From a virus, in IMG/VR virus record IMGVR_UViG_3300045915_000028: 50,562 bases of DNA; one strand, 5' to 3'. Each line of letters starts with the position of its first letter. The first letter of the stretch is position 1. The notes below the pieces were generated by a model, which saw nothing but the letters and a program-made list of their open reading frames with translations, was not told where the DNA came from and made no database searches. Below are positions 1-50,562 of this stretch, piece after piece. The translations under genes were made by a program, and so were the position numbers.

Positions 1-61
1 CCCTGGTCAGCGTCTTTGCCTCCGGAGCAGAAGGCCGCAGGTTCGAATCCTGCCGGGGGCA
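1..61 (+). tRNA. 3' two-thirds of tRNA-Arg (anticodon CCG); 5' acceptor/D-stem part is outside the window
   Basis: Anticodon stem TTTGC/GCAGA (15-19/27-31), loop CTCCGGA with CCG at 22-24, variable AGGCC, T-arm GCAGG-TTCGAAT-CCTGC (37-53), acceptor strand CGGGGGC plus discriminator A (54-61). Confidence 0.6.
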
Positions 62-123
62 CCCATCCCGGGTCGAGCATGGGGCCTCGGCCTGTCAGTA
101 ACCAGTCACGGTCCAGGCCACAA
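1..123. repeat. Left copy of exact 123-bp terminal direct repeat (att core/attL, or overlap of a circular assembly)
   Basis: Bases 1-123 match 50440-50562 base for base; the repeat is bounded by both window edges. Confidence 0.95.
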
Positions 124-3295: not shown

Positions 3296-3450
3296 CGCTT
3301 ATGACGATGCTCACGCTGATCGTGGGCCTGATCGCCGTGACGCGGTTCGTGGCGTCACTCAATGAGGCCCGTACCCGGTTGTCGGTCCTCGATGTGCTGG
3401 CGCAAAGCCCGGTCGCTGAGGCTGAGGCGATCCTGCGGGGTGCCCGGTGA
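3292..3450 (+). CDS. Small membrane protein (52 aa)
   Basis: ATGA overlap; MTLMTMLTLIVGLIAVTRFVASL... TM segment; below ORF-track cutoff. Confidence 0.5.
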   Translation: MTLMTMLTLIVGLIAVTRFVASLNEARTRLSVLDVLAQSPVAEAEAILRGAR

Positions 3451-45571: not shown

Positions 45572-45926
45572 CTACGCGCCGCGCTGGCGGCGACTCATGT
45601 CCGGCGGGCCGATCCTGCGCGGCCACTGGGGCGCGTTGATCTGCCTATTCATGGCGGGCGTGTGCTTCGACAAGATCGAAGTCGTGGACCGATTCACCAG
45701 CGCCACATTGTCACGTGACGGGTGGACGTGGTGGCCGACCGACACGCCGTGGCTCTTGGCGGCGGTCGCACTCTCCGTCGTCGGAAAGCTGAGCTTGGAC
45801 ATGTACGGGCGCAACGCATGGCTCACCTGGGCGCCGCCGGGTGAGACGTGGAACGGGCTCACGAAAGCCGACTGCAACCGTGTGCCCTTGATCCGCCGCC
45901 CGAGGTGGCTCACATGGAGCGACTGA
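45564..45926 (+). CDS. Membrane protein (120 aa)
   Basis: ORF track; hydrophobic segments ALICLFMAGVCF and WLLAAVALSVVG. Confidence 0.5.
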   Translation: MSDYAPRWRRLMSGGPILRGHWGALICLFMAGVCFDKIEVVDRFTSATLSRDGWTWWPTDTPWLLAAVALSVVGKLSLDMYGRNAWLTWAPPGETWNGLTKADCNRVPLIRRPRWLTWSD

Positions 45927-46096
45927 GCAACGGCGTCAACCTGCTGGTGACCGCGGTCATCGGCTCCATCATCCCGGCCGTGATCACCGCGGTGACGGCA
46001 TGGTGGAATCGCGACACGGCCCGCCACCAGCACGAGACCGAGCGGTTGCGTGCGCAGAGAGATCAGGATGAGCGTGGACCTGAGCCCCTGACCTGA
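45914..46096 (+). CDS. Small TM protein with charged C-terminus (60 aa)
   Basis: MERLSNGVNLLVTAVIGSIIPAVITAVTAWW then RDTARHQHETERLRAQRDQDE. Confidence 0.45.
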   Translation: MERLSNGVNLLVTAVIGSIIPAVITAVTAWWNRDTARHQHETERLRAQRDQDERGPEPLT

Positions 46097-46105
46097 CGTG
46101 TATTT

Positions 46106-46144
46106 ATACCGAGGTATTGACACGCGGCGATACCTTGGTATAGA
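46106..46144 (+). promoter_or_regulatory. Consensus-like promoter (TTGACA, 16 nt, TATAGA) flanked by two ATACC-NN-GGTAT palindromes
   Basis: ATACCGAGGTAT 46106-46117, TTGACA 46117-46122, ATACCTTGGTAT 46130-46141, TATAGA 46139-46144, ATG at 46153. Confidence 0.55.
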
Positions 46145-46152
46145 CTAAGGTC

Positions 46153-46476
46153 ATGACAACGACGGCCACCCCCGCACAGATCGCCTACGCCACCAAACTC
46201 CAAGACGACATGGCCGCCTACGCAGCCATGCCCATCACCGACGCCACCAGGTTCGGACTCGAACGCAGCAATTGGCAGATCCTCGGCTACACCAGCCGCG
46301 AGGACTACCTCACCGACGCCGACCGCCGCACCTGCACCCCCGACGAGATCACCGCCGACGCCCAGGCCCGTGCCGAGCAGCTACGCGCCCGCCAGGCCGA
46401 GCTGGCCGCCGCCGACATCCACTCCATGAGCAAGACCGAGATCAGCGCCTACATCGCCGCCGCGAAGAAGCTCTGA
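46153..46476 (+). CDS. Hypothetical protein, operon gene A (107 aa)
   Basis: First ORF after the promoter; likely leaderless or very short leader. Confidence 0.65.
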   Translation: MTTTATPAQIAYATKLQDDMAAYAAMPITDATRFGLERSNWQILGYTSREDYLTDADRRTCTPDEITADAQARAEQLRARQAELAAADIHSMSKTEISAYIAAAKKL

Positions 46477-46823
46477 TGACCGACACCAGGCTCTACCACG
46501 CAGTCGGTAACGAGTGGACCGAGGGCCAGCCCGTCTGGTCGCTATACAAGCTGCACGACGGCGACGACGACGCCATCGTCGCGCACGCCGTCCGAAATTG
46601 GGGTGACACACTCCTGACCCCCGAAACTGTGACCTATGTACACATGACAACCGATCTCGACGAAGCGCTTGACATCGCAGCCGATCAGGGCCGCGGCCGG
46701 GTGCTGGTCATCGACCCCGCCCTACTCTGGCAGGAGCCCGGATTGGGCGACGAGGGATACCCGGCGGTCTACGAGCAGATCAATCCCGAGGCAATCGTCG
46801 ACGTAGTGGAGGTGGCCCGATGA
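46476..46823 (+). CDS. Hypothetical protein, operon gene B (115 aa); possible Arr-like ADP-ribosyltransferase fold
   Basis: TGATG junction; RLYHAV..., YVHMTT..., GRVLVIDPALLWQEPG, AVYEQINPEAIVDVVE pattern (resemblance judged from memory). Confidence 0.6.
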   Translation: MTDTRLYHAVGNEWTEGQPVWSLYKLHDGDDDAIVAHAVRNWGDTLLTPETVTYVHMTTDLDEALDIAADQGRGRVLVIDPALLWQEPGLGDEGYPAVYEQINPEAIVDVVEVAR

Positions 46824-47449
46824 CCGCCACCGCCTCCGAGTTGGCCCGCGAGATCGCCGCCACCCTCGACGGCCAAGACGGCGACTGGGACATCGCCGCC
46901 ATCACCGCCACCCTGTGGGGAGCCGGACACCACCACCTGACCGACATCCCCGAAGCCGAATTCTGGCGCACCGTCTTCGCTCACCCACGGCCCGACCCCG
47001 CCGACGAGCCGCGCCGGTTCCGCTCCGACCTGTCCGCGAAGATCGTCACCACCCGCGCCGACCGAGACGCCATCTGGACCGACGGCACCGTCACCGTCCG
47101 CGCCCGCGGGGTGTCACGGGTCAATCAGGAGTTGCCGCAGCCACTCGCCGAGATCGTCGTCGAGTCACCCTTCGATGAGGTCGCCGTCCGCGACACGGAC
47201 TGGGATGGGCTCTGGGCCAAGGTCTGCGAGGTCCGAGACGACGCCGCGCAGGCGCGGGCCATGCTGAGCACCCGACTGCGCGCAGCTGCCCACCACCACC
47301 AGGCCGTGGAGTCGCGGCTACAGACGGCTCTTCGCGAGCGCGACGCCGCGATCCGGGCGGCGCTCGACGCTGGGATGTCGGCCTCCGATGTCGCCGCAAA
47401 CGCCGGCCTTTCCGAGCCGATGGTGTACAAGGTGGCACGGCAGCGGTAG
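46820..47449 (+). CDS. Operon gene C: protein with C-terminal HTH (209 aa)
   Basis: ATGA overlap; C-terminal AALDAGMSASDVAANAGLSEPMVYKVARQR. Confidence 0.65.
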   Translation: MTATASELAREIAATLDGQDGDWDIAAITATLWGAGHHHLTDIPEAEFWRTVFAHPRPDPADEPRRFRSDLSAKIVTTRADRDAIWTDGTVTVRARGVSRVNQELPQPLAEIVVESPFDEVAVRDTDWDGLWAKVCEVRDDAAQARAMLSTRLRAAAHHHQAVESRLQTALRERDAAIRAALDAGMSASDVAANAGLSEPMVYKVARQR

Positions 47450-47506
47450 TCTCCAAGTCTCCCCGCGTGATGCAGGGATGAGCCCAGTGCTTAGGTCGGA
47501 AGCGGC

Positions 47507-48286
47507 CTAGTCGCCCAGCTCGAAAATTAAGTGCTCCCACCGCACGGTGGGATTGAACCGTGGATACGGATTCGGGATGCGCTCCGGCACTGCCCTGACC
47601 TGACGTGCGCGTCGCCCGCGCACTGTCACCACCCGCGCGTGACCGCATCGGACCCCCCGACCCGCCCCGCTTCGAGCCCGCCAACCGGCTCGGCGGGGCG
47701 GTTTTTGTGCGTTTGGGGTGCCGACCCCCTGAACCGGCTTCCATGGGGCACACCCGTAGCTGACGAAATACTCGCCGCGCTGAAGCGTGACCCGGGCGAC
47801 TCGGCCCACCGCGACGTCGCCTCGGGCGATCATGGAGTCGGCGAGTCCGCTGATTGTCGTGTCCTGTGGCCAGTCCGGCGATAACCGAAGCCAGTTGCAT
47901 GGCCGTCTGTTCACCCGGATCGATCCCTCGGTCTCGTATGTGCCCGACCGCCCGATCTGGTAATAAGTACCGTCCGTGTCCATCGGATCTCCGGGGCTGT
48001 CATCTGGGTTGTAGGTCGCGACCATTGCCATGATCCCCACCACGACGGTCCCGGCGACCACCCACCACGCGCGACGGCAATTCCACGCCGTTTTCGCCCG
48101 ACTGGTCCCCGACACTGCCTCGACAGGGTCCACCTTGGCGAGGTGCACATCTGCTGTTTGTCGACACTTCGCGCACCGGAACCGACGGCCGGTCGATCCC
48201 GCCCGCAGGGTGAGGCGGGCGCCGCAGTGCGGGCAGACGACATGGCGGCGGTCGGCCCCCGGGGGCGTGGACATCGCGGGACTCAT
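47507..48286 (-). CDS. Zinc-ribbon / single-TM membrane protein (259 aa as ORF; last ~75 codons doubtful)
   Basis: CPHCG...CAKC, TM WWVVAGTVVVGIMAMVATY, extracytoplasmic domain; the tail from about 47730 is Arg-rich and crosses the plus-strand terminator. Confidence 0.6.
   Translation of the reverse strand: MSPAMSTPPGADRRHVVCPHCGARLTLRAGSTGRRFRCAKCRQTADVHLAKVDPVEAVSGTSRAKTAWNCRRAWWVVAGTVVVGIMAMVATYNPDDSPGDPMDTDGTYYQIGRSGTYETEGSIRVNRRPCNWLRLSPDWPQDTTISGLADSMIARGDVAVGRVARVTLQRGEYFVSYGCAPWKPVQGVGTPNAQKPPRRAGWRARSGAGRGVRCGHARVVTVRGRRARQVRAVPERIPNPYPRFNPTVRWEHLIFELGD
47662..47706 (+). terminator. Rho-independent terminator (plus strand)
   Basis: CCGCCCCGCTTCGAGCC...GGCTCGGCGGGGCGG hairpin with a 2-nt bulge, followed by TTTTT (47702-47706). 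Confidence 0.6.
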
Positions 48287-48633
48287 GTCAGCCTGTGGTA
48301 CGACCCGGAATGGTCATGCCATGGGCACAGGAACTCGGCCGCTGCCACCACCCAGATTGTCGCGACATAGACCGTCGGCACATCGCTATACGCGGCATGA
48401 TAGAACCGCGTCGCCACAACGTCGCCGGTGGTGTAGTTCATCTGGTCGCACAGCCAGTAGCCGGTGTTGACGGCTTGGCTCGGGTTATAGATCACCATTC
48501 CCTGCGCTTCGAGCGCGTAGAGGTACGCGCCCGGCGATGCGTTTGCGGCTGGGGCGGCGAGCATGCTGGTTGTTATTGCGGCTGACAGCATGAGGCCCGC
48601 GGTTGCGGTTCGCTTCCATGTTTGGTTTCGCAT
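48283..48633 (-). CDS. Secreted DUF732-like protein (116 aa)
   Basis: AAGGGGG RBS then ATG 48633; signal peptide ...SMLAAPAANA/SP; Cys pair; ATGA overlap with the downstream gene. Confidence 0.65.
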   Translation of the reverse strand: MRNQTWKRTATAGLMLSAAITTSMLAAPAANASPGAYLYALEAQGMVIYNPSQAVNTGYWLCDQMNYTTGDVVATRFYHAAYSDVPTVYVATIWVVAAAEFLCPWHDHSGSYHRLT

Positions 48634-48841
48634 CACAAAATCAACCCCCTTGATCAAATCCGACCCGCATACTAGCGCAACCATCAGGGGGTCTAGCAAA
48701 TCCTGCGTAGTTCCCTGCGGGTTTACATCAGTGCAGGTCAAATGACACGTTGGTGATTTACCGGTGGAGTGGTCGGCTATCGGCCCGGTGATTTACAGCA
48801 GTTCGATCGCCGCGCGTTGGCGCCGGGTGCGGGTTGGCTCA

Positions 48842-49339
48842 TTAGCGTCCCGCATTCTGTGCGCGCTCAAGATCACCGACGCATTTACCGACTGCGTCGT
48901 TGTAATCCGTCCAGTCCCAGAAATGGGTTTCCAGCCGGCGCCCATCTGGCAGCAGGGTGTAGCGCCGCGCGTCTGATGTGAGTGCATATACCGCGCCATC
49001 GCTCTGTACCCACGTGTCCTGGCTTGACACCTTCGTCCCAGCCGTGTCGACGATGTTTCCGCCCACGTAGGTTTCCGCGTGGGTTCCATGGACTGACTGC
49101 GCGTGCTCGAGGTGTTCACCGTTGGTGAAGTTGGCGTTGATGATGTCCACGATCGCGGCCGGAGCGGGTAAACAGCCCGCCGCCGGTGCGGCGACTCGGC
49201 CGGCGGGCGCGTCGGTCGGGGTGGTCATCGGTATTCGGGAGATCGTCGGAATGGTTTCGCTGGGGGTAGTGGCTGGTGGGGTTGTTCCACATCCACCCAG
49301 CACGGCCGCCGCAGCGGCGGCCACGATCCCCCGACGCAT
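48842..49339 (-). CDS. Lipoprotein (165 aa)
   Basis: MRRGIVAAAAAAVLGGCG: lipobox LGGC after a hydrophobic signal. Confidence 0.65.
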   Translation of the reverse strand: MRRGIVAAAAAAVLGGCGTTPPATTPSETIPTISRIPMTTPTDAPAGRVAAPAAGCLPAPAAIVDIINANFTNGEHLEHAQSVHGTHAETYVGGNIVDTAGTKVSSQDTWVQSDGAVYALTSDARRYTLLPDGRRLETHFWDWTDYNDAVGKCVGDLERAQNAGR

Positions 49340-49455
49340 CACGGCGAGGACGATATCAAGCCGCGGCGTCCGACACTGCCCGAATCTTGCGATCACCGCC
49401 TAGGTCGGGCCTTCGGAACGTAGTCACCATCGTCGCGATCAGCCGCGGCGCTTGG

Positions 49456-50316
49456 TCACGCCGCGGTGCGGGTTCCACGGAACGGGTCGAGTCGGTTTAT
49501 CGCGTGGTGGCGACGCGCATCGGGCACCTTCAGGTAACCCTGAGTCGTCGAAATAGATGAATGCCGGAGCAGCTCCTTGACGGTCAGCAGGTCCGCGCCG
49601 TCATCGAGCAGTGTGGTGCCGAACCAGTGCCGAAGTTTGTGCGGGGTTCCTGGCACGTCGGCGCGGCGCATCGCCAGACTGATGATGTGCGAGACCGATT
49701 TGCCTAGGACCGGCTCCCCTGGCCTCGTCGAGTTCGCTGGGAACCAGAATCCGTGCGTCGGCATCGTCTTGGCGGCATCGACCAGCAACGGATGTAGCGG
49801 CAGGGTGCGGGCCTTGCGGTTCTTGCCTTCCACCCAGATCGACGGAACGGTCAGGTCGAGGTGTTCGCCTCGCACCTTGGCGATCTCGCTTACCCGCAAC
49901 CCCGCGAGCACCGCCAGCAAGATCATGACTCGGGTCCGGTGGTGCATCCGCGTGGTCAGCAGCTTCACTACCGACGCATCGCTGACTGGCCTCGGTGCGC
50001 GGTCCGGCCAGCGCGGTGCGCCCACCTTCACAGTCGGATCGTCGAGACGGTGGTCATCAACCTGCAGCCACCGGTACCACGCGCGCAAATAACCGAAGTA
50101 TGTGCAGGCGGTACCGTCCGACCAATCGTGTTGGTGATCGGCCAGCCAGCGCATGATGTCCATCGCTGTAGCTGACGCTGGCTGCACGTTCCGTTCTTCA
50201 GCAAACTGCGCGAGCACCCGCACCCGTTCGGAGATGACCGGCATGGTCATCCGTCGACTGTGCATCCACAGCATCCACTCATCGAGATATGCGATTCCCT
50301 GCGTGTTCATCGGCAA
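49456..50316 (-). CDS. int: Tyrosine integrase (286 aa)
   Basis: AGLRVSEI, HKLRHWFGTTLL, LLRHSSISTTQGYL catalytic R/H-x-x-R/Y blocks; adjacent to the att repeat. Confidence 0.9.
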   Translation of the reverse strand: MPMNTQGIAYLDEWMLWMHSRRMTMPVISERVRVLAQFAEERNVQPASATAMDIMRWLADHQHDWSDGTACTYFGYLRAWYRWLQVDDHRLDDPTVKVGAPRWPDRAPRPVSDASVVKLLTTRMHHRTRVMILLAVLAGLRVSEIAKVRGEHLDLTVPSIWVEGKNRKARTLPLHPLLVDAAKTMPTHGFWFPANSTRPGEPVLGKSVSHIISLAMRRADVPGTPHKLRHWFGTTLLDDGADLLTVKELLRHSSISTTQGYLKVPDARRHHAINRLDPFRGTRTAA

Positions 50317-50562
50317 AGTTTAATGAGGTGGGCTATACTTCCGTGGCCTGTTTGCTGCAGGCTGGTGTCCATGGTCACCGGAAGTGGTGCCATTTGACCT
50401 TGGGCGCGATTGGGGAATGTCAGTACTTTGGCGAATAAGCCCTGGTCAGCGTCTTTGCCTCCGGAGCAGAAGGCCGCAGGTTCGAATCCTGCCGGGGGCA
50501 CCCATCCCGGGTCGAGCATGGGGCCTCGGCCTGTCAGTAACCAGTCACGGTCCAGGCCACAA
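50307..50562 (-). CDS. 3' end of the virion/attP form of the immunity repressor (continues the frame of 1..326 through the repeat; 44 phage-specific C-terminal codons)
   Basis: Frame open from the window edge to the stop at 50307-50309; phase matches ORF 326..1 (326 + 133 nt = 153 codons); overlaps the int start by 10 nt. Confidence 0.7.
   Translation of the reverse strand, partial: CGLDRDWLLTGRGPMLDPGWVPPAGFEPAAFCSGGKDADQGLFAKVLTFPNRAQGQMAPLPVTMDTSLQQTGHGSIAHLIKLCR
50440..50500 (+). other. Second copy of the tRNA-Arg 3' fragment (not a complete tRNA)
   Basis: Identical to 1-61; upstream 50380-50439 contains no GCCCCCG acceptor strand or D-arm. Confidence 0.7.
50440..50562. repeat. Right copy of exact 123-bp terminal direct repeat (attR/attP core)
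   Basis: Identical to 1-123. Confidence 0.95.

What the first reader, a model, noticed from the sequence alone, without database searches (positions are those of the whole stretch)
46097..47449. Autonomous three-gene operon with a near-consensus promoter bracketed by two ATACC-NN-GGTAT palindromes: candidate novel toxin-antitoxin-like or defence module
Seen: directly after the lysis genes lies TTGACA (46117-46122), a 16-nt spacer, then TATAGA (46139-46144), with the ATG at 46153 implying little or no leader. Two 12-bp perfect palindromes, ATACCGAGGTAT (46106-46117) and ATACCTTGGTAT (46130-46141), abut the -35 and overlap the -10. This motif is unrelated to the rep/cro operator.

The promoter drives three translationally coupled genes joined by TGATG and ATGA overlaps. 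Gene A is 107 aa and helical. Gene B is 115 aa. Gene C is 209 aa with a C-terminal HTH (MSASDVAANAGLSEPMVYKVARQR).

The operon sits in the accessory zone between lysis and integrase. A strong terminator follows 210 nt downstream.

Established: operator palindromes overlapping the promoter, tight coupling and a dedicated HTH are hallmarks of autoregulated toxin-antitoxin and many prophage defence operons. The lysis-to-integrase interval is a known hotspot for such cargo.

Inference: this is a self-regulated module expressed from the prophage independently of the immunity repressor. Gene C is the likely operator-binding regulator and gene B the likely effector. I recognise no described system with this composition.
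Basis: partly seen in the sequence, partly recalled or inferred. Interest (0 to 1): 0.75.

Follow-up and report, generated by a model that had tools for sequence, protein, structure and literature searches.

The report
Phage anti-CRISPR operon with CRISPR-repeat mimic

Summary
The promoter, the two ATACC-NN-GGTAT inverted repeats, the three coupled genes, the C-terminal HTH and the terminator are all at the stated coordinates.

Only gene C and this mimic array are conserved. All 8 independent loci that encode a C relative carry such an array within 100 nt of the stop codon. These loci come from metagenomic phages, an IMG/VR virus and a Streptomyces plasmid. The middle gene differs in every locus, and B's only close relative sits elsewhere.

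The spacer-like segments are 20-21 nt or 44-46 nt long, never the host's 32 nt. That is -12 or +12 nt, the only altered lengths at which I-E Cascade assembles stably.

The promoter inverted repeat is conserved where the HTH is conserved and changes where the HTH changes.

Best reading: an acr-aca-like operon, autorepressed by C, with candidate anti-CRISPR cargo (A, B) and a co-transcribed crRNA-like RNA of the Racr/Cracr kind. C's protein family and the +12 spacer form appear undescribed. No function was tested, and no target of the RNA was found.

The parts
46086..46100 (.). Left copy of the exact 15-bp direct repeat CCCTGACCTGACGTG. It overlaps the stop codon of the last lysis-region ORF and marks the left edge of the cassette.
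   Evidence: family D19, 100% identity, spacing 1507. Homology to L013 and L010 begins just after it, at about 46098.
46106..46117 (+). Upstream inverted repeat ATACC-GA-GGTAT. Its last T is the first base of the -35 box. Candidate operator 1.
   Evidence: Conserved as ATACCaaGGTAT in L013; only a half-site remains in L010.
46117..46122 (+). -35 hexamer TTGACA.
   Evidence: TTGAC is invariant in 5 aligned loci.
46130..46141 (+). Inverted repeat ATACC-TT-GGTAT in the promoter spacer, overlapping the -10 box. Candidate operator 2, the better conserved of the two.
   Evidence: ATACCacGGTAT in L013, ATACCgtGGTAT in L010, degenerate ATAGCatGGTGT in L008, replaced by ATATATagATATAT at the same position in L007.
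46141..46146 (+). -10 hexamer TAGACT with an 18-nt spacer. It lies 6 nt before the ATG, so the mRNA is leaderless.
   Evidence: 10 of 12 matches. It is the only such site in the window. L008, L010 and L013 share the TTGACR-N18-TANNNT-N6-ATG layout.
46153..46476 (+). Gene A, 107 aa, mildly acidic (pI 5.0). First gene of the operon. No family assignment. Candidate accessory or anti-defence protein.
   Evidence: Relatives at 53-58% identity head the operons of L007 and L010. In L008, L012, L013 and L137 a different first gene shares only the terminal motifs ATxxQ..L and MsKtEiSaYI..K, with hhalign probabilities of 1-19% across the three comparisons. No A-like gene was seen in L142.
46476..46823 (+). 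Gene B, 115 aa, very acidic (pI 4.1, net charge -16). It occupies the variable cargo slot. Candidate enzymatic or mimic-type inhibitor with weak ADP-ribosyltransferase-fold signals.
   Evidence: Weak hits to DUF952 (E 0.13) and RNA 2'-phosphotransferase (E 0.08 and 0.2) in three libraries. AF2 model pLDDT 66. The Foldseek top hit is 2o0p (E 0.19; DUF952 by my recollection), followed by Arr, scabin and pertussis toxin, none significant.
46820..47449 (+). Gene C, 209 aa. The model shows a helical bundle (5-77), a four-strand sheet (84-123, including the invariant stretch W86-P108 except positions 90, 102 and 104), a long helix (128-183) and an HTH (188-207). It is the conserved core protein, the likely autorepressor (Aca-like) and possibly also the effector.
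   Evidence: Relatives in L007, L008, L010, L012, L013, L137 and L142.
47456..47485 (+). psi-repeat 1, AGTCTCCCCGCGTGATGCAGGGATGAGCCC. It mimics the actinobacterial type I-E CRISPR repeat and carries the canonical 8-nt 5'-handle ATGAGCCC. It starts 6 nt after the stop codon of C.
   Evidence: Host consensus GTGCTCCCCGCGnnnGCGGGGATGAGCCC from real arrays. Hairpin covariation.
47486..47530 (+). 45-nt spacer-like segment (psi-spacer). Its first 21 nt, AGTGCTTAGGTCGGAAGCGGC, are the conserved part.
   Evidence: By eye on the sequences, window versus L013 is 19 of 21 identical in the first 21 nt and 14 of 24 in the rest. No target was found.
47531..47559 (+). psi-repeat 2, GTGCTCCCACCGCACGGTGGGATTGAACC. 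It has the canonical 5' end and a perfect 7-bp stem with compensatory changes, but a degenerate handle, as terminal repeats do.
47593..47607 (.). Right copy of the 15-bp direct repeat, marking the right edge of the cassette.
   Evidence: D19.
47661..47706 (+). Intrinsic terminator: a long GC hairpin (CCCGCCCCGC...GCGGGGCGG) followed by TTTTT. It lies outside the cassette and probably was the terminator of the late/lysis operon before the cassette was inserted.
   Evidence: sequence; fold. The pattern scan missed it; I attribute this to its long interior, beyond the scan's 3-8-nt loop limit.

Best explanation
**What it is.** A mobile anti-CRISPR-type counter-defence cassette (about 46098-47592) in a temperate, mycobacteriophage-like phage. 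It is inserted between the lysis genes and their terminator.

**How it most likely works**
1. On entry, the near-consensus promoter fires and makes a leaderless transcript: A, B, C, then psiR1, psiS, psiR2.
2. C accumulates, probably dimerises through its long helix, and binds the ATACC-NN-GGTAT repeats over the -35 and -10 boxes. This shuts the operon down to a low level. The logic is that of Aca repressors of acr operons.
3. Host Cas6e cuts the 3' part of the transcript at the two repeat mimics. The product is a crRNA-like RNA: the handle AUGAGCCC, 45 nt, and the psiR2 hairpin.
4. This RNA competes with host crRNAs for Cas proteins. It assembles a Cascade of altered size: +12 nt means two extra Cas7 and one extra Cas11, and relatives use -12 nt instead.
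5. Through its conserved first 21 nt, the RNA probably steers that complex to a host promoter (cas genes or a Cas-guarded toxin) without cleavage. This is how Cracr RNAs work.
6. The conserved N-terminal part of C is probably a protein inhibitor of normal Cascade that spares the odd-sized complexes, as AcrIF24 does. The variable genes (A, B here) are probably additional inhibitors.

**Shown here:** the anatomy, the conservation, the repeat mimicry, the hairpin covariation, the length quantisation and the operator-HTH co-variation.

**Inferred:** every functional step, namely repression by C, Cas6e processing, Cascade loading, the RNA's target, and Acr activity of A, B or C.
For: **1. The repeats are real CRISPR-repeat mimics.**
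- The core pattern CCCCGCG-N3-5-GCGGGGATGAGCCC matches real arrays with a 61-nt period in Gordonia, Nocardia, Corynebacterium, Hoyosella, Arthrobacter and others.
- L010 psiR2 equals the Gordonia repeat from position 4 onward.
- Window psiR1 is the only hairpin in 50.5 kb with an 8 of 8 handle match.

**2. Linkage to C.** All 8 independent C-family loci carry such an array 5-76 nt after the stop codon, or directly adjacent on the other strand. These are the window, L007, L008, L010, L012, L013, L137 and L142. By contrast, only 7 of 2.9 million IMG/VR contigs hold an exact match to this core pattern, and a BLAST of the L010 array against 50,697 isolated phages found nothing. L137 was found through the repeat alone, and it then proved to encode a C N-domain homologue (hhalign probability 93%, E 2.4e-7).

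**3. Selection on RNA structure.** In 17 aligned repeat sequences (16 phage copies plus one host consensus), 95.8% of stem cells pair, against 85% in shuffles. There are 10 double-change cells, reached by 0 of 500 shuffles. Covariation is 0.286 against at most 0.069 when the pairing partner is slid.

**4. The parts that end up in a mature crRNA are the conserved ones.** In nearly every locus the first repeat keeps the ATGAGCCC handle (L142 has ATGATCCG, L007 GTGAGCCG) and the last keeps a complementary hairpin, often with GTGCT, but has a degenerate handle.

**5. Length quantisation.** The psi-spacers are 20, 20, 21, 21, 21 nt and 44, 44, 45, 45, 45, 45, 46, 46 nt. Host spacers are 32 nt. In type I-E Cascade, -12, +12 and +24 nt complexes assemble with the expected stoichiometry, while -18, -6, +6 and +18 show assembly defects (PMC6859484).

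**6. acr-aca-like architecture.** There is a strong promoter, two inverted repeats sharing half-sites of which one is better conserved, an HTH gene last, and variable small genes upstream. This matches Aca2 (PMC6765145). The HTH type and the palindrome change together.

**7. Precedent.**
- Racr RNAs co-locate with acr genes (PMC10651486).
- Viral Cracr arrays have 21-24-nt psi-spacers in I-E.
- AcrIF24, an Acr with an Aca-type HTH, is tightly linked to Cracr genes and discriminates complexes by spacer length (bioRxiv 10.1101/2024.10.29.618823).

**8. Cargo.** B is very acidic. Its domain also occurs at the N-terminus of a 1315-aa protein that carries GNAT domains.
Against: - No Acr activity, Cas interaction, RNA processing or DNA binding was tested.
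- No target was found for any psi-spacer. I searched 120 host array loci, the window and IMG/VR. The host and its CRISPR-Cas locus are unknown.
- No Mycobacterium appeared in the 120 genome stretches fetched by the capped scan.
- In L007 and L008 the array is on the strand opposite to C. Co-transcription with C is therefore not universal, and the link may be adjacency within an anti-defence island.
- Window psiR1 has a C-A mismatch and a 5-nt loop, which could impair Cas6e recognition.
- The 45-nt segment can fold into an internal hairpin.
- The described Cracr spacers are shorter, not longer, than canonical.
- A, B and C match no Pfam, NCBIfam, PHROG or PADLOC family above threshold; no dedicated Acr/Aca library was available. 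Rfam gave no CRISPR-DR hit.
Confidence: 0.6

Rival explanations
1. The repeats form a phage-borne mini-CRISPR array that borrows the host's Cas proteins to attack competing phages or plasmids (superinfection exclusion). A, B and C are a neighbouring regulatory or cargo operon.
For: The layout is repeat, spacer, degenerate terminal repeat, with canonical handle and hairpin. L010 and L008 hold 3 spacer-like segments each. The cassette lies in the lysis-integrase interval, where lysogeny-expressed exclusion genes are common (own knowledge). Elongated spacers can still support cleavage (PMC6859484).
Against: No segment has the 32-nt length that host adaptation produces. Segments within one array resemble each other by eye, and the window and L013 segments are 19 of 21 identical in their first 21 nt although their C proteins share only about 51% identity. 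Independently acquired spacers would not behave this way. No protospacer was found in 2.9 million viral contigs. The strict linkage to one protein family is left unexplained.
Confidence: 0.12
2. An autoregulated accessory operon with another role, such as lysogeny control or superinfection immunity. The repeat mimics would be decaying relics or mere hairpins and terminators with no CRISPR-related role.
For: No functional data exist. psiR1 of the window is imperfect. In L007 and L008 the array has the opposite orientation. The C-terminal HTH is of a kind common in actinophages.
Against: The 8 of 8 linkage spans hosts from Mycobacteriales-type phages to a Streptomyces plasmid. Compensatory stem changes occur. 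The 8-nt handle is preserved exactly. Lengths are quantised at -12 and +12 nt. All of this argues for selection on a Cas-related RNA.
Confidence: 0.12
3. One reading: a three-gene toxin-antitoxin-like or anti-phage defence module, with B as toxin or effector and C as regulator.
For: The promoter is autoregulated in design, the genes are tightly coupled, and the cassette sits in a known hotspot. B may have an ADP-ribosyltransferase-like fold, a fold used by toxins such as DarT (the DarT comparison is own knowledge).
Against: B is not a conserved partner. Five other loci carry unrelated middle genes or none, and B's relative in L009 lacks A and C. There are no PADLOC hits. The hypothesis does not explain the CRISPR-repeat mimics.
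Confidence: 0.06

Closest known systems
acr-aca operons (Aca1/Aca2-type autoregulated anti-CRISPR operons; PMC6765145, PMC13551039)
   Same: A strong promoter. Two inverted repeats that share half-sites and overlap the promoter, one better conserved than the other. The HTH regulator is the last gene. Variable small acidic genes lie upstream. The unit sits on a temperate phage.
   Different: C is larger (209 aa), and its conserved part is the non-HTH region. No upstream gene is a known Acr. Repression has not been tested.
AcrIF24 with its linked CracrIF RNAs (PMC9001735; bioRxiv 10.1101/2024.10.29.618823)
   Same: A protein of about 210-230 aa with N-terminal effector domains and a C-terminal HTH that autoregulates. 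It is tightly linked to a crRNA-like mini-array whose spacer length differs from the canonical one.
   Different: There is no sequence or fold similarity. The subtype is I-E in Actinobacteria, not I-F in Proteobacteria. Both -12 and +12 nt spacer classes occur here, whereas only shorter ones are described. Binding to Cascade is not shown.
Racr / Cracr RNA anti-CRISPRs, including the Salmonella prophage CracrIE array (PMC10651486; bioRxiv 10.1101/2024.10.29.618823)
   Same: CRISPR-repeat mimics on a mobile element, outside any cas locus, next to candidate acr/aca genes. The layout is psiR, psiS, psiR. Relatives have 20-21-nt psi-spacers, against 21-24 nt in CracrIE. Arrays hold related spacers.
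   Different: The window's psi-spacer is 45 nt (+12). No match to a cas or creT promoter could be shown. Whether these particular loci are in that paper's tables was not checked.
AcrIF11 (ADP-ribosyltransferase anti-CRISPR) and the DUF952 / Tpt1 branch of the ART fold, as a comparison for gene B only
   Same: A small single-domain protein on a phage in an anti-defence context. There are weak, mutually consistent hits to ART-fold families. A YH motif near the N-terminus is invariant and a mostly conserved EGY motif lies near the C-terminus.
   Different: All hits are below significance (E 0.08-0.2; Foldseek E 0.19 on a pLDDT-66 model). No similarity to AcrIF11 was found or specifically tested. 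The AcrIF11 comparison is from memory.

Membership tests
acr-aca operon (Aca-autoregulated anti-CRISPR operon) | An HTH (or RHH) regulator is encoded in the operon, usually as the last gene. | tested here: met
   C is the last gene. HTH at 188-207 in a pLDDT-91 model. phrog_686 E 1.3e-4. BFVD matches to actinophage HTH proteins with probability 1.0.
acr-aca operon (Aca-autoregulated anti-CRISPR operon) | Conserved inverted repeat(s) overlap the -35/-10 region of a strong promoter and are bound by the regulator. | tested here: inconclusive
   The presence, position, conservation and co-variation with HTH type are met. Binding and repression cannot be tested with these tools.
acr-aca operon (Aca-autoregulated anti-CRISPR operon) | At least one co-encoded gene inhibits a CRISPR-Cas system. 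| not testable with these tools
   A, B and C have no annotated homologue. The only link to CRISPR is the adjacent repeat-mimic array.
acr-aca operon (Aca-autoregulated anti-CRISPR operon) | The regulator belongs to a described Aca family (Aca1-14). | tested here: inconclusive
   C gives no hit to the Pfam Aca2_YdiL model (that model did hit a neighbouring L007 gene) and no significant PDB sequence or fold match. The other Aca families were not specifically searched. If C is an Aca, it looks like a new family.
Racr / Cracr (CRISPR-repeat-mimic RNA anti-CRISPR) | Sequence and hairpin mimic a host CRISPR repeat, on a mobile element, outside a CRISPR-Cas locus. | tested here: met
   None of the six neighbouring ORFs scanned against Pfam or NCBIfam gave a Cas hit.
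Racr / Cracr (CRISPR-repeat-mimic RNA anti-CRISPR) | Cracr: a psiR-psiS-psiR unit whose psi-spacer has a non-canonical (described: shorter) length. | tested here: inconclusive
   The length is non-canonical in all 13 units. Five are 20-21 nt, as described. The window's is 45 nt, a class not described in the paper.
Racr / Cracr (CRISPR-repeat-mimic RNA anti-CRISPR) | [quoted passage not shown] | tested here: inconclusive
   Nothing rose above the shuffled background in 120 host array loci (846 kb) or in the window. The true host locus is not in hand.
Racr / Cracr (CRISPR-repeat-mimic RNA anti-CRISPR) | Cas-dependent processing and inhibition of interference. | not testable with these tools
   This needs sRNA-seq and interference assays.
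   The middle gene differs in every locus. B's relative occurs without A or C. A is absent from L142 and of a different type in L008, L012, L013 and L137.
   PADLOC gave 0 hits for all three genes. Pfam and NCBIfam gave nothing above threshold.
Functional CRISPR array | Spacers have the length made by host adaptation (32-33 nt for this repeat type) and match foreign DNA. | tested here: not met
   Lengths are 20-21 or 44-46 nt, against 32 nt in hosts. No protospacer was found in IMG/VR.
ADP-ribosyltransferase fold (DUF952 / Tpt1-like), for gene B | An ART fold with a conserved NAD-binding and catalytic triad. | tested here: inconclusive
   Sub-threshold HMM hits in three libraries. Model pLDDT 66. 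Foldseek top hits are ART-fold proteins, but E is at least 0.19. YH is invariant and EGY mostly conserved in 11 family members. The PDB profile search was empty.

The most novel reading that the evidence does not exclude
C founds a new family of bifunctional anti-CRISPR/Aca proteins for actinobacterial type I-E systems. It would block canonical Cascade (6 Cas7, 2 Cas11) but spare Cascade complexes assembled on the phage's own crRNA-like RNA. That RNA is built at exactly -12 or +12 nt so that it still assembles stably. The +12 form in this window would be the first 'extended' viral regulatory crRNA. Gene B would be an ADP-ribosyltransferase-type enzymatic inhibitor riding in the cargo slot.
Probability: 0.25. 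Interest if true: 0.8.

Novelty: new variant of a known kind. Interest (0 to 1): 0.65.

Why it matters
To my knowledge, no anti-CRISPR has been demonstrated experimentally for mycobacteriophage-like phages. The one survey I read reports only structure-based predictions (PMC12363180).

This cassette offers three things:
- **A marker gene.** The C family could be used to find anti-CRISPR loci in Actinobacteria by guilt by association.
- **A set of unannotated candidate inhibitors.** These are A, B and the other cargo genes.
- **A natural experiment on Cascade stoichiometry.** The -12/+12 nt spacer-like lengths coincide with the only altered lengths that assemble stably in vitro. This makes directly testable the idea that phages exploit odd-sized Cascade complexes.

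It would also matter for phage therapy and for genetic tools in hosts that carry type I-E systems.

Tried and rejected
**Searches that found nothing**
- Rfam at E up to 10 gave no CRISPR-DR hit on the window segment or on five loci. I put this down to short models and do not count it as evidence against.
- Pattern plus tblastn scans for the C family found nothing in IMG/VR or in 185,579 GTDB species genomes. The metagenome scan returned two loci, of which only L013 was new.
- tblastn of A, B and C against 50,697 GenBank phages gave no match. blastn of the cassette gave no match either.
- PDB sequence profiles and Foldseek for B and C returned nothing significant. AcrIF24 was not recovered.
- BFVD matched only the HTH end of C.
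- The psi-spacer target search gave only background scores in 120 host loci and the window, and no exact pattern match in IMG/VR.

**Homology that did not hold up**
- The three kinds of first gene share only short terminal motifs. hhalign probabilities are 1-19%, so I treat this as a motif-level resemblance, not as homology.

**Ideas considered and dropped**
- The repeats as a transposon or integron-like recombination site. The exact 8-nt crRNA handle and the host-repeat identity argue for mimicry.
- The 45-nt segment as a 21-nt spacer plus a decayed repeat. This is plausible for L010 psiS3 but not convincing for the window.
- Use of the single exhaustive HMMER job on C rather than B. I chose B, to test the ART hint. 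It defined a small family (12 representatives) but built no bridge to DUF952.
Full report
**1. The observation**

Reading 45700-48000 and the ORF list confirms these elements:
- TTGACA at 46117-46122, TATAGA at 46139-46144, and the ATG at 46153.
- ATACCGAGGTAT at 46106-46117 and ATACCTTGGTAT at 46130-46141.
- Three genes joined by TGATG and ATGA overlaps: A 46153-46476, B 46476-46823, C 46820-47449.
- A large hairpin plus T-run at 47661-47706.

Two details need correction. The 12-mers are 5+2+5 inverted repeats, not perfect palindromes. The consensus scan picks TAGACT (46141-46146, 18-nt spacer, 10 of 12 matches) as the -10 box. This places the start site at or next to the ATG, so the mRNA is leaderless.

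The features are not chance:
- The inverted-repeat pattern occurs only at these two places in 50.5 kb, against 0.21 expected.
- This is the only site with at least 10 of 12 sigma-70 matches on either strand of the whole window.

The window itself is a circularly assembled temperate phage genome. It has a 123-bp terminal overlap, LysA, LysB and a holin, a tyrosine integrase, and mycobacterial-type accessory genes. The only DNA similarity to known phages is a short LysA segment of mycobacteriophages.

**2. The proteins have no annotated relatives and are very rare**

Pfam, PHROGs, NCBIfam and PADLOC give nothing above threshold for A, B or C. The searches also found:
- In 5.8 billion clustered proteins, B has one relative, C has four and A has two.
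- tblastn against 50,697 GenBank phages finds none of the three.
- C folds with high confidence (pLDDT 91): a helical bundle, a four-strand sheet, a 55-residue helix and a C-terminal HTH.
- Only C's last 60-70 residues resemble anything, namely small actinophage HTH proteins.

**3. The trio is not conserved**

I fetched the contigs that encode the relatives and compared all their genes.
- C is always present, at 44-52% identity.
- It is preceded by an A-type gene in L007 and L010.
- In L008, L012 and L013 it is preceded by a different first gene that shares only short terminal motifs with A.
- The middle gene is unrelated in every locus: 115 aa here, 86 aa in L007, 53 aa in L008, 101 aa in L010, and none in L012 or L013.
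- B's only close relative (L009) lies beside a Cluster-A-type immunity repressor (phrog_357, E 2e-57), among repeated AAAGGCTTGA motifs, with no A or C.

This is the pattern of a conserved regulator with a swappable cargo slot. It is not that of a toxin-antitoxin or multi-gene defence system.

**4. The promoter and operator are under selection**

L013 and L010 keep the whole promoter almost base for base, although their proteins are about half identical. L013 even has a different first gene.
- window: tttATACCgaGGTATTGACAcgcggcgATACCttGGTATAGACTaaggtcATG
- L013: tttATACCaaGGTATTGACAcgcggatATACCacGGTATAGATTgatggcATG
- L010: tttATACCgaCCTATTGACAgcgggttATACCgtGGTATAAATTgatggcATG

The arms are kept and the central dinucleotide drifts, which is what a dimer-binding operator looks like.

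Where the recognition helix differs, so does the palindrome:
- L007 (QPVTVYKI... instead of SEPMVYKV...) has ATATAT-AG-ATATAT at the same position.
- L137, with an XRE-type HTH, has unrelated 7-bp-arm repeats over its -35 and TATAAT boxes.
- The Streptomyces homologue, whose C-terminal HTH looks MerR/excisionase-like by eye (not HMM-tested), has a 26-bp perfect palindrome.

The layout is also that of Aca-controlled anti-CRISPR promoters: a strong promoter and two inverted repeats sharing half-sites, one better conserved (PMC6765145).

**5.

Six nucleotides after the stop codon of C lies AGTCTCCCCGCGTGATGCAGGGATGAGCCC (47456-47485). Then come 45 nt, then GTGCTCCCACCGCACGGTGGGATTGAACC (47531-47559).

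A genome scan with CCCCGCG-N3-5-GCGGGGATGAGCCC hit real CRISPR arrays with a 61-nt period in Gordonia, Nocardia, Corynebacterium, Hoyosella, Arthrobacter, Kocuria, Streptomyces and others. Their consensus is GTGCTCCCCGCGnnnGCGGGGATGAGCCC. This is the actinobacterial type I-E repeat, and its last 8 nt form the crRNA 5' handle. The subtype assignment and handle role rest on comparison with the E. coli repeat, from my own knowledge.

Every C-family locus has such elements directly downstream:

| Locus | Repeats and spacer-like segments |
|---|---|
| L013, L012 | repeat, 45 or 44 nt, repeat, terminator |
| L010 | four repeats with 20, 21 and 44 nt between them |
| L007, L008 | two and four repeats, on the opposite strand |

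Two further loci extend the set:
- I scanned IMG/VR for the repeat alone and found 7 contigs. One of them, L137, carries a first gene with A's ATxxQ...L / ...EASxxIxxLK terminal motifs (167 aa), a 143-aa gene and a 332-aa gene. The N-terminus of the 332-aa gene is homologous to C (hhalign probability 93%, E 2.4e-7; tblastn 1e-5). Thirteen nucleotides later comes repeat, 45 nt, repeat, terminator.
- A Streptomyces linear plasmid encodes a 263-aa C homologue (tblastn E 1e-4), followed by repeat, 20 nt, repeat.

That makes 8 of 8 independent loci. A BLAST of the L010 array against 50,697 isolated phages found nothing.

**6. The RNA looks functional and crRNA-like**

Across 17 aligned repeat sequences (16 phage copies plus one host consensus), the 7-bp stem pairs in 95.8% of cells. 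There are ten double compensatory changes, such as CCCCGC/GCGGGG, CCCCAC/GTGGGG, CCCCTC/GAGGGG, CCCACC/GGTGGG and CCCGGC/GCCGGG. None of 500 shuffles reach this, and slid controls collapse.

In nearly every locus the first repeat keeps the ATGAGCCC handle, while the last keeps a complementary hairpin, often with the GTGCT 5' end, and has a degenerate handle. These are exactly the parts that would remain in one mature crRNA.

Measured by one rule, the spacer-like segments are 20, 20, 21, 21, 21 nt and 44, 44, 45, 45, 45, 45, 46, 46 nt. None is 32 nt. For type I-E Cascade, native mass spectrometry showed that -12, +12 and +24 nt spacers give the expected complexes, with two Cas7 and one Cse2 added or removed per 12 nt. 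The -18, -6, +6 and +18 nt spacers show assembly defects (PMC6859484). The phage RNAs sit on the two nearest stable alternatives.

The first 21 nt of the window and L013 segments are 19 of 21 identical, and one of the two differences is at position 6, which is flipped out in Cascade (own knowledge). The remaining 24 nt are 14 of 24 identical. Within L008 and L010 the segments resemble one another by eye. This is the behaviour of guides aimed at variants of one conserved target, not of acquired spacers.

**7. Comparison with the literature**

- Racr RNAs are solitary repeat mimics on phages, often next to acr genes. They inhibit I-C, I-E, I-F and V-A systems (PMC10651486).
- A preprint describes viral crRNA-like regulatory RNAs (Cracr). 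They are laid out as psiR, psiS, psiR, often in arrays, with 21-24-nt psi-spacers in a Salmonella I-E case. They repress cas or toxin promoters through the host's own Cas proteins.
- Most acrIF24 genes (AcrIF24 is an Acr with an Aca-type HTH) are followed by such an RNA. AcrIF24 spares complexes built on the shorter RNA (10.1101/2024.10.29.618823).

The cassette here has the same logic in a different protein family, a different phylum and subtype I-E, and it adds a +12-nt class. In the C family the HTH type is swapped (HTH_28-like, XRE, MerR-like by eye) while the non-HTH part is kept. In L013 the first roughly 60 residues are lost, but the invariant beta-sheet segment remains. I therefore think the non-HTH part is the effector and the HTH is a bolt-on autoregulator, as in AcrIF24 and AcrIE10 (PMC9001735, PMC13530269). 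This step is inference.

**8. Gene B**

B is very acidic (pI 4.1). The exhaustive HMMER search found only 12 family representatives in 1.84 billion proteins. Most are about 105 aa, with an invariant YH near the N-terminus. One carries the domain at the N-terminus of a 1315-aa protein with GNAT domains.

Three HMM libraries give sub-threshold hits to DUF952 and RNA 2'-phosphotransferase. A mediocre model (pLDDT 66) has 2o0p as its best Foldseek match, followed by Arr, scabin and pertussis toxin S1. My recollection is that 2o0p is a DUF952 protein. All of these are ART-fold proteins, but all the hits are non-significant. I rate an ART fold at about even odds. An ADP-ribosylating anti-CRISPR (AcrIF11) is a known precedent, cited from memory.

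**9. Cassette boundaries**

An exact 15-bp direct repeat (46086-46100 and 47593-47607) brackets the promoter, A, B, C and the array. Homology with L013 starts right after the left copy. The big terminator lies outside the right copy. The cassette therefore looks inserted between the last lysis-region gene and the terminator of the late operon. It is identical in six contigs from different samples, apart from one SNP.

**10. Weak points**

- Nothing functional was tested.
- No target of any psi-spacer was found, and the host is unknown.
- In L007 and L008 the array is on the other strand. There it would be transcribed with the convergent genes (in L008, the lysis cassette), not with C.
- psiR1 of the window has a mismatch in its stem.

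**11. Verdict**

| Reading | Confidence |
|---|---|
| Anti-CRISPR-type counter-defence cassette | about 0.6 |
| Phage mini-array for inter-phage conflict | 0.12 |
| Repeats are relics or plain hairpins; the operon has some other role | 0.12 |

The toxin-antitoxin or defence part does not.

Noticed in passing
window 1-123 and 50440-50562: An exact 123-bp terminal direct repeat. The window is therefore a circularly assembled genome of about 50,439 bp. The repeat contains the 3' end of a tRNA (GGTTCGAATCC...), the likely attP core next to the integrase at 49456-50316.
   Followed up: partly
window 47507-49396, minus strand: Three leftward genes between the cassette and the integrase: a Zn-ribbon protein with an Rv1352/Rv1906c-like domain, a DUF732 protein, and a phrog_16337 membrane/lipoprotein-like protein. 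They look like typical lysogeny-expressed morons. The 259-aa ORF's Arg-rich tail runs through the terminator hairpin, and JGI called the gene much shorter (135 aa), so its true extent is doubtful.
   Followed up: partly
L002 14131-15687: One otherwise identical copy of this phage carries an IS200/IS605-type insertion (Y1 transposase plus a TnpB/Cas12f-like OrfB) right next to the integrase.
   Followed up: no
L009 1-900: The only close relative of gene B sits in a lower-GC phage, directly upstream of a Cluster-A-type immunity repressor. It is surrounded by many copies of AAAGGCTTGA-like motifs that look like stoperators.
   Followed up: partly
L030 about 3336-3410 (Corynebacterium sp. MAG): A host-side mini-array lies about 200 bp before the main type I-E array: degenerate repeat, 20-nt segment TTACTTGATAATGGTTCTCA, repeat. 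It may be a native CreR/CreA-like regulatory crRNA of the -12 size class.
   Followed up: no
L136 / L039 426-1700 (Gulosibacter macacae prophage): A 155-aa gene and a 215-aa XRE-type HTH gene, unrelated to C, are followed 5 nt later by repeat, 21 nt, repeat, terminator. An inverted repeat lies in the promoter spacer. This is a second, independent 'HTH regulator plus I-E repeat mimic' design.
   Followed up: partly
P0011 (1315 aa, from the exhaustive search): The B domain occurs at the N-terminus (residues 18-142) of a giant protein with GNAT acetyltransferase domains. It resembles the polyvalent anti-defence proteins of phages and conjugative elements.
   Followed up: no
L007 542-1307: The L007 contig also carries an Aca2_YdiL-type HTH gene and a second HTH_3 gene about 1.5 kb upstream of its A-x-C operon. 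This may point to an anti-defence island.
   Followed up: no
window 47495-47510: Inside the 45-nt spacer-like segment, a small hairpin GGTCG-GAAG-CGGCC is kept in L013 as CGTCG-GAAG-CGGCG, with a compensatory change at the outer pair. It could be a decayed repeat or a structural element. It remains unexplained.
   Followed up: partly
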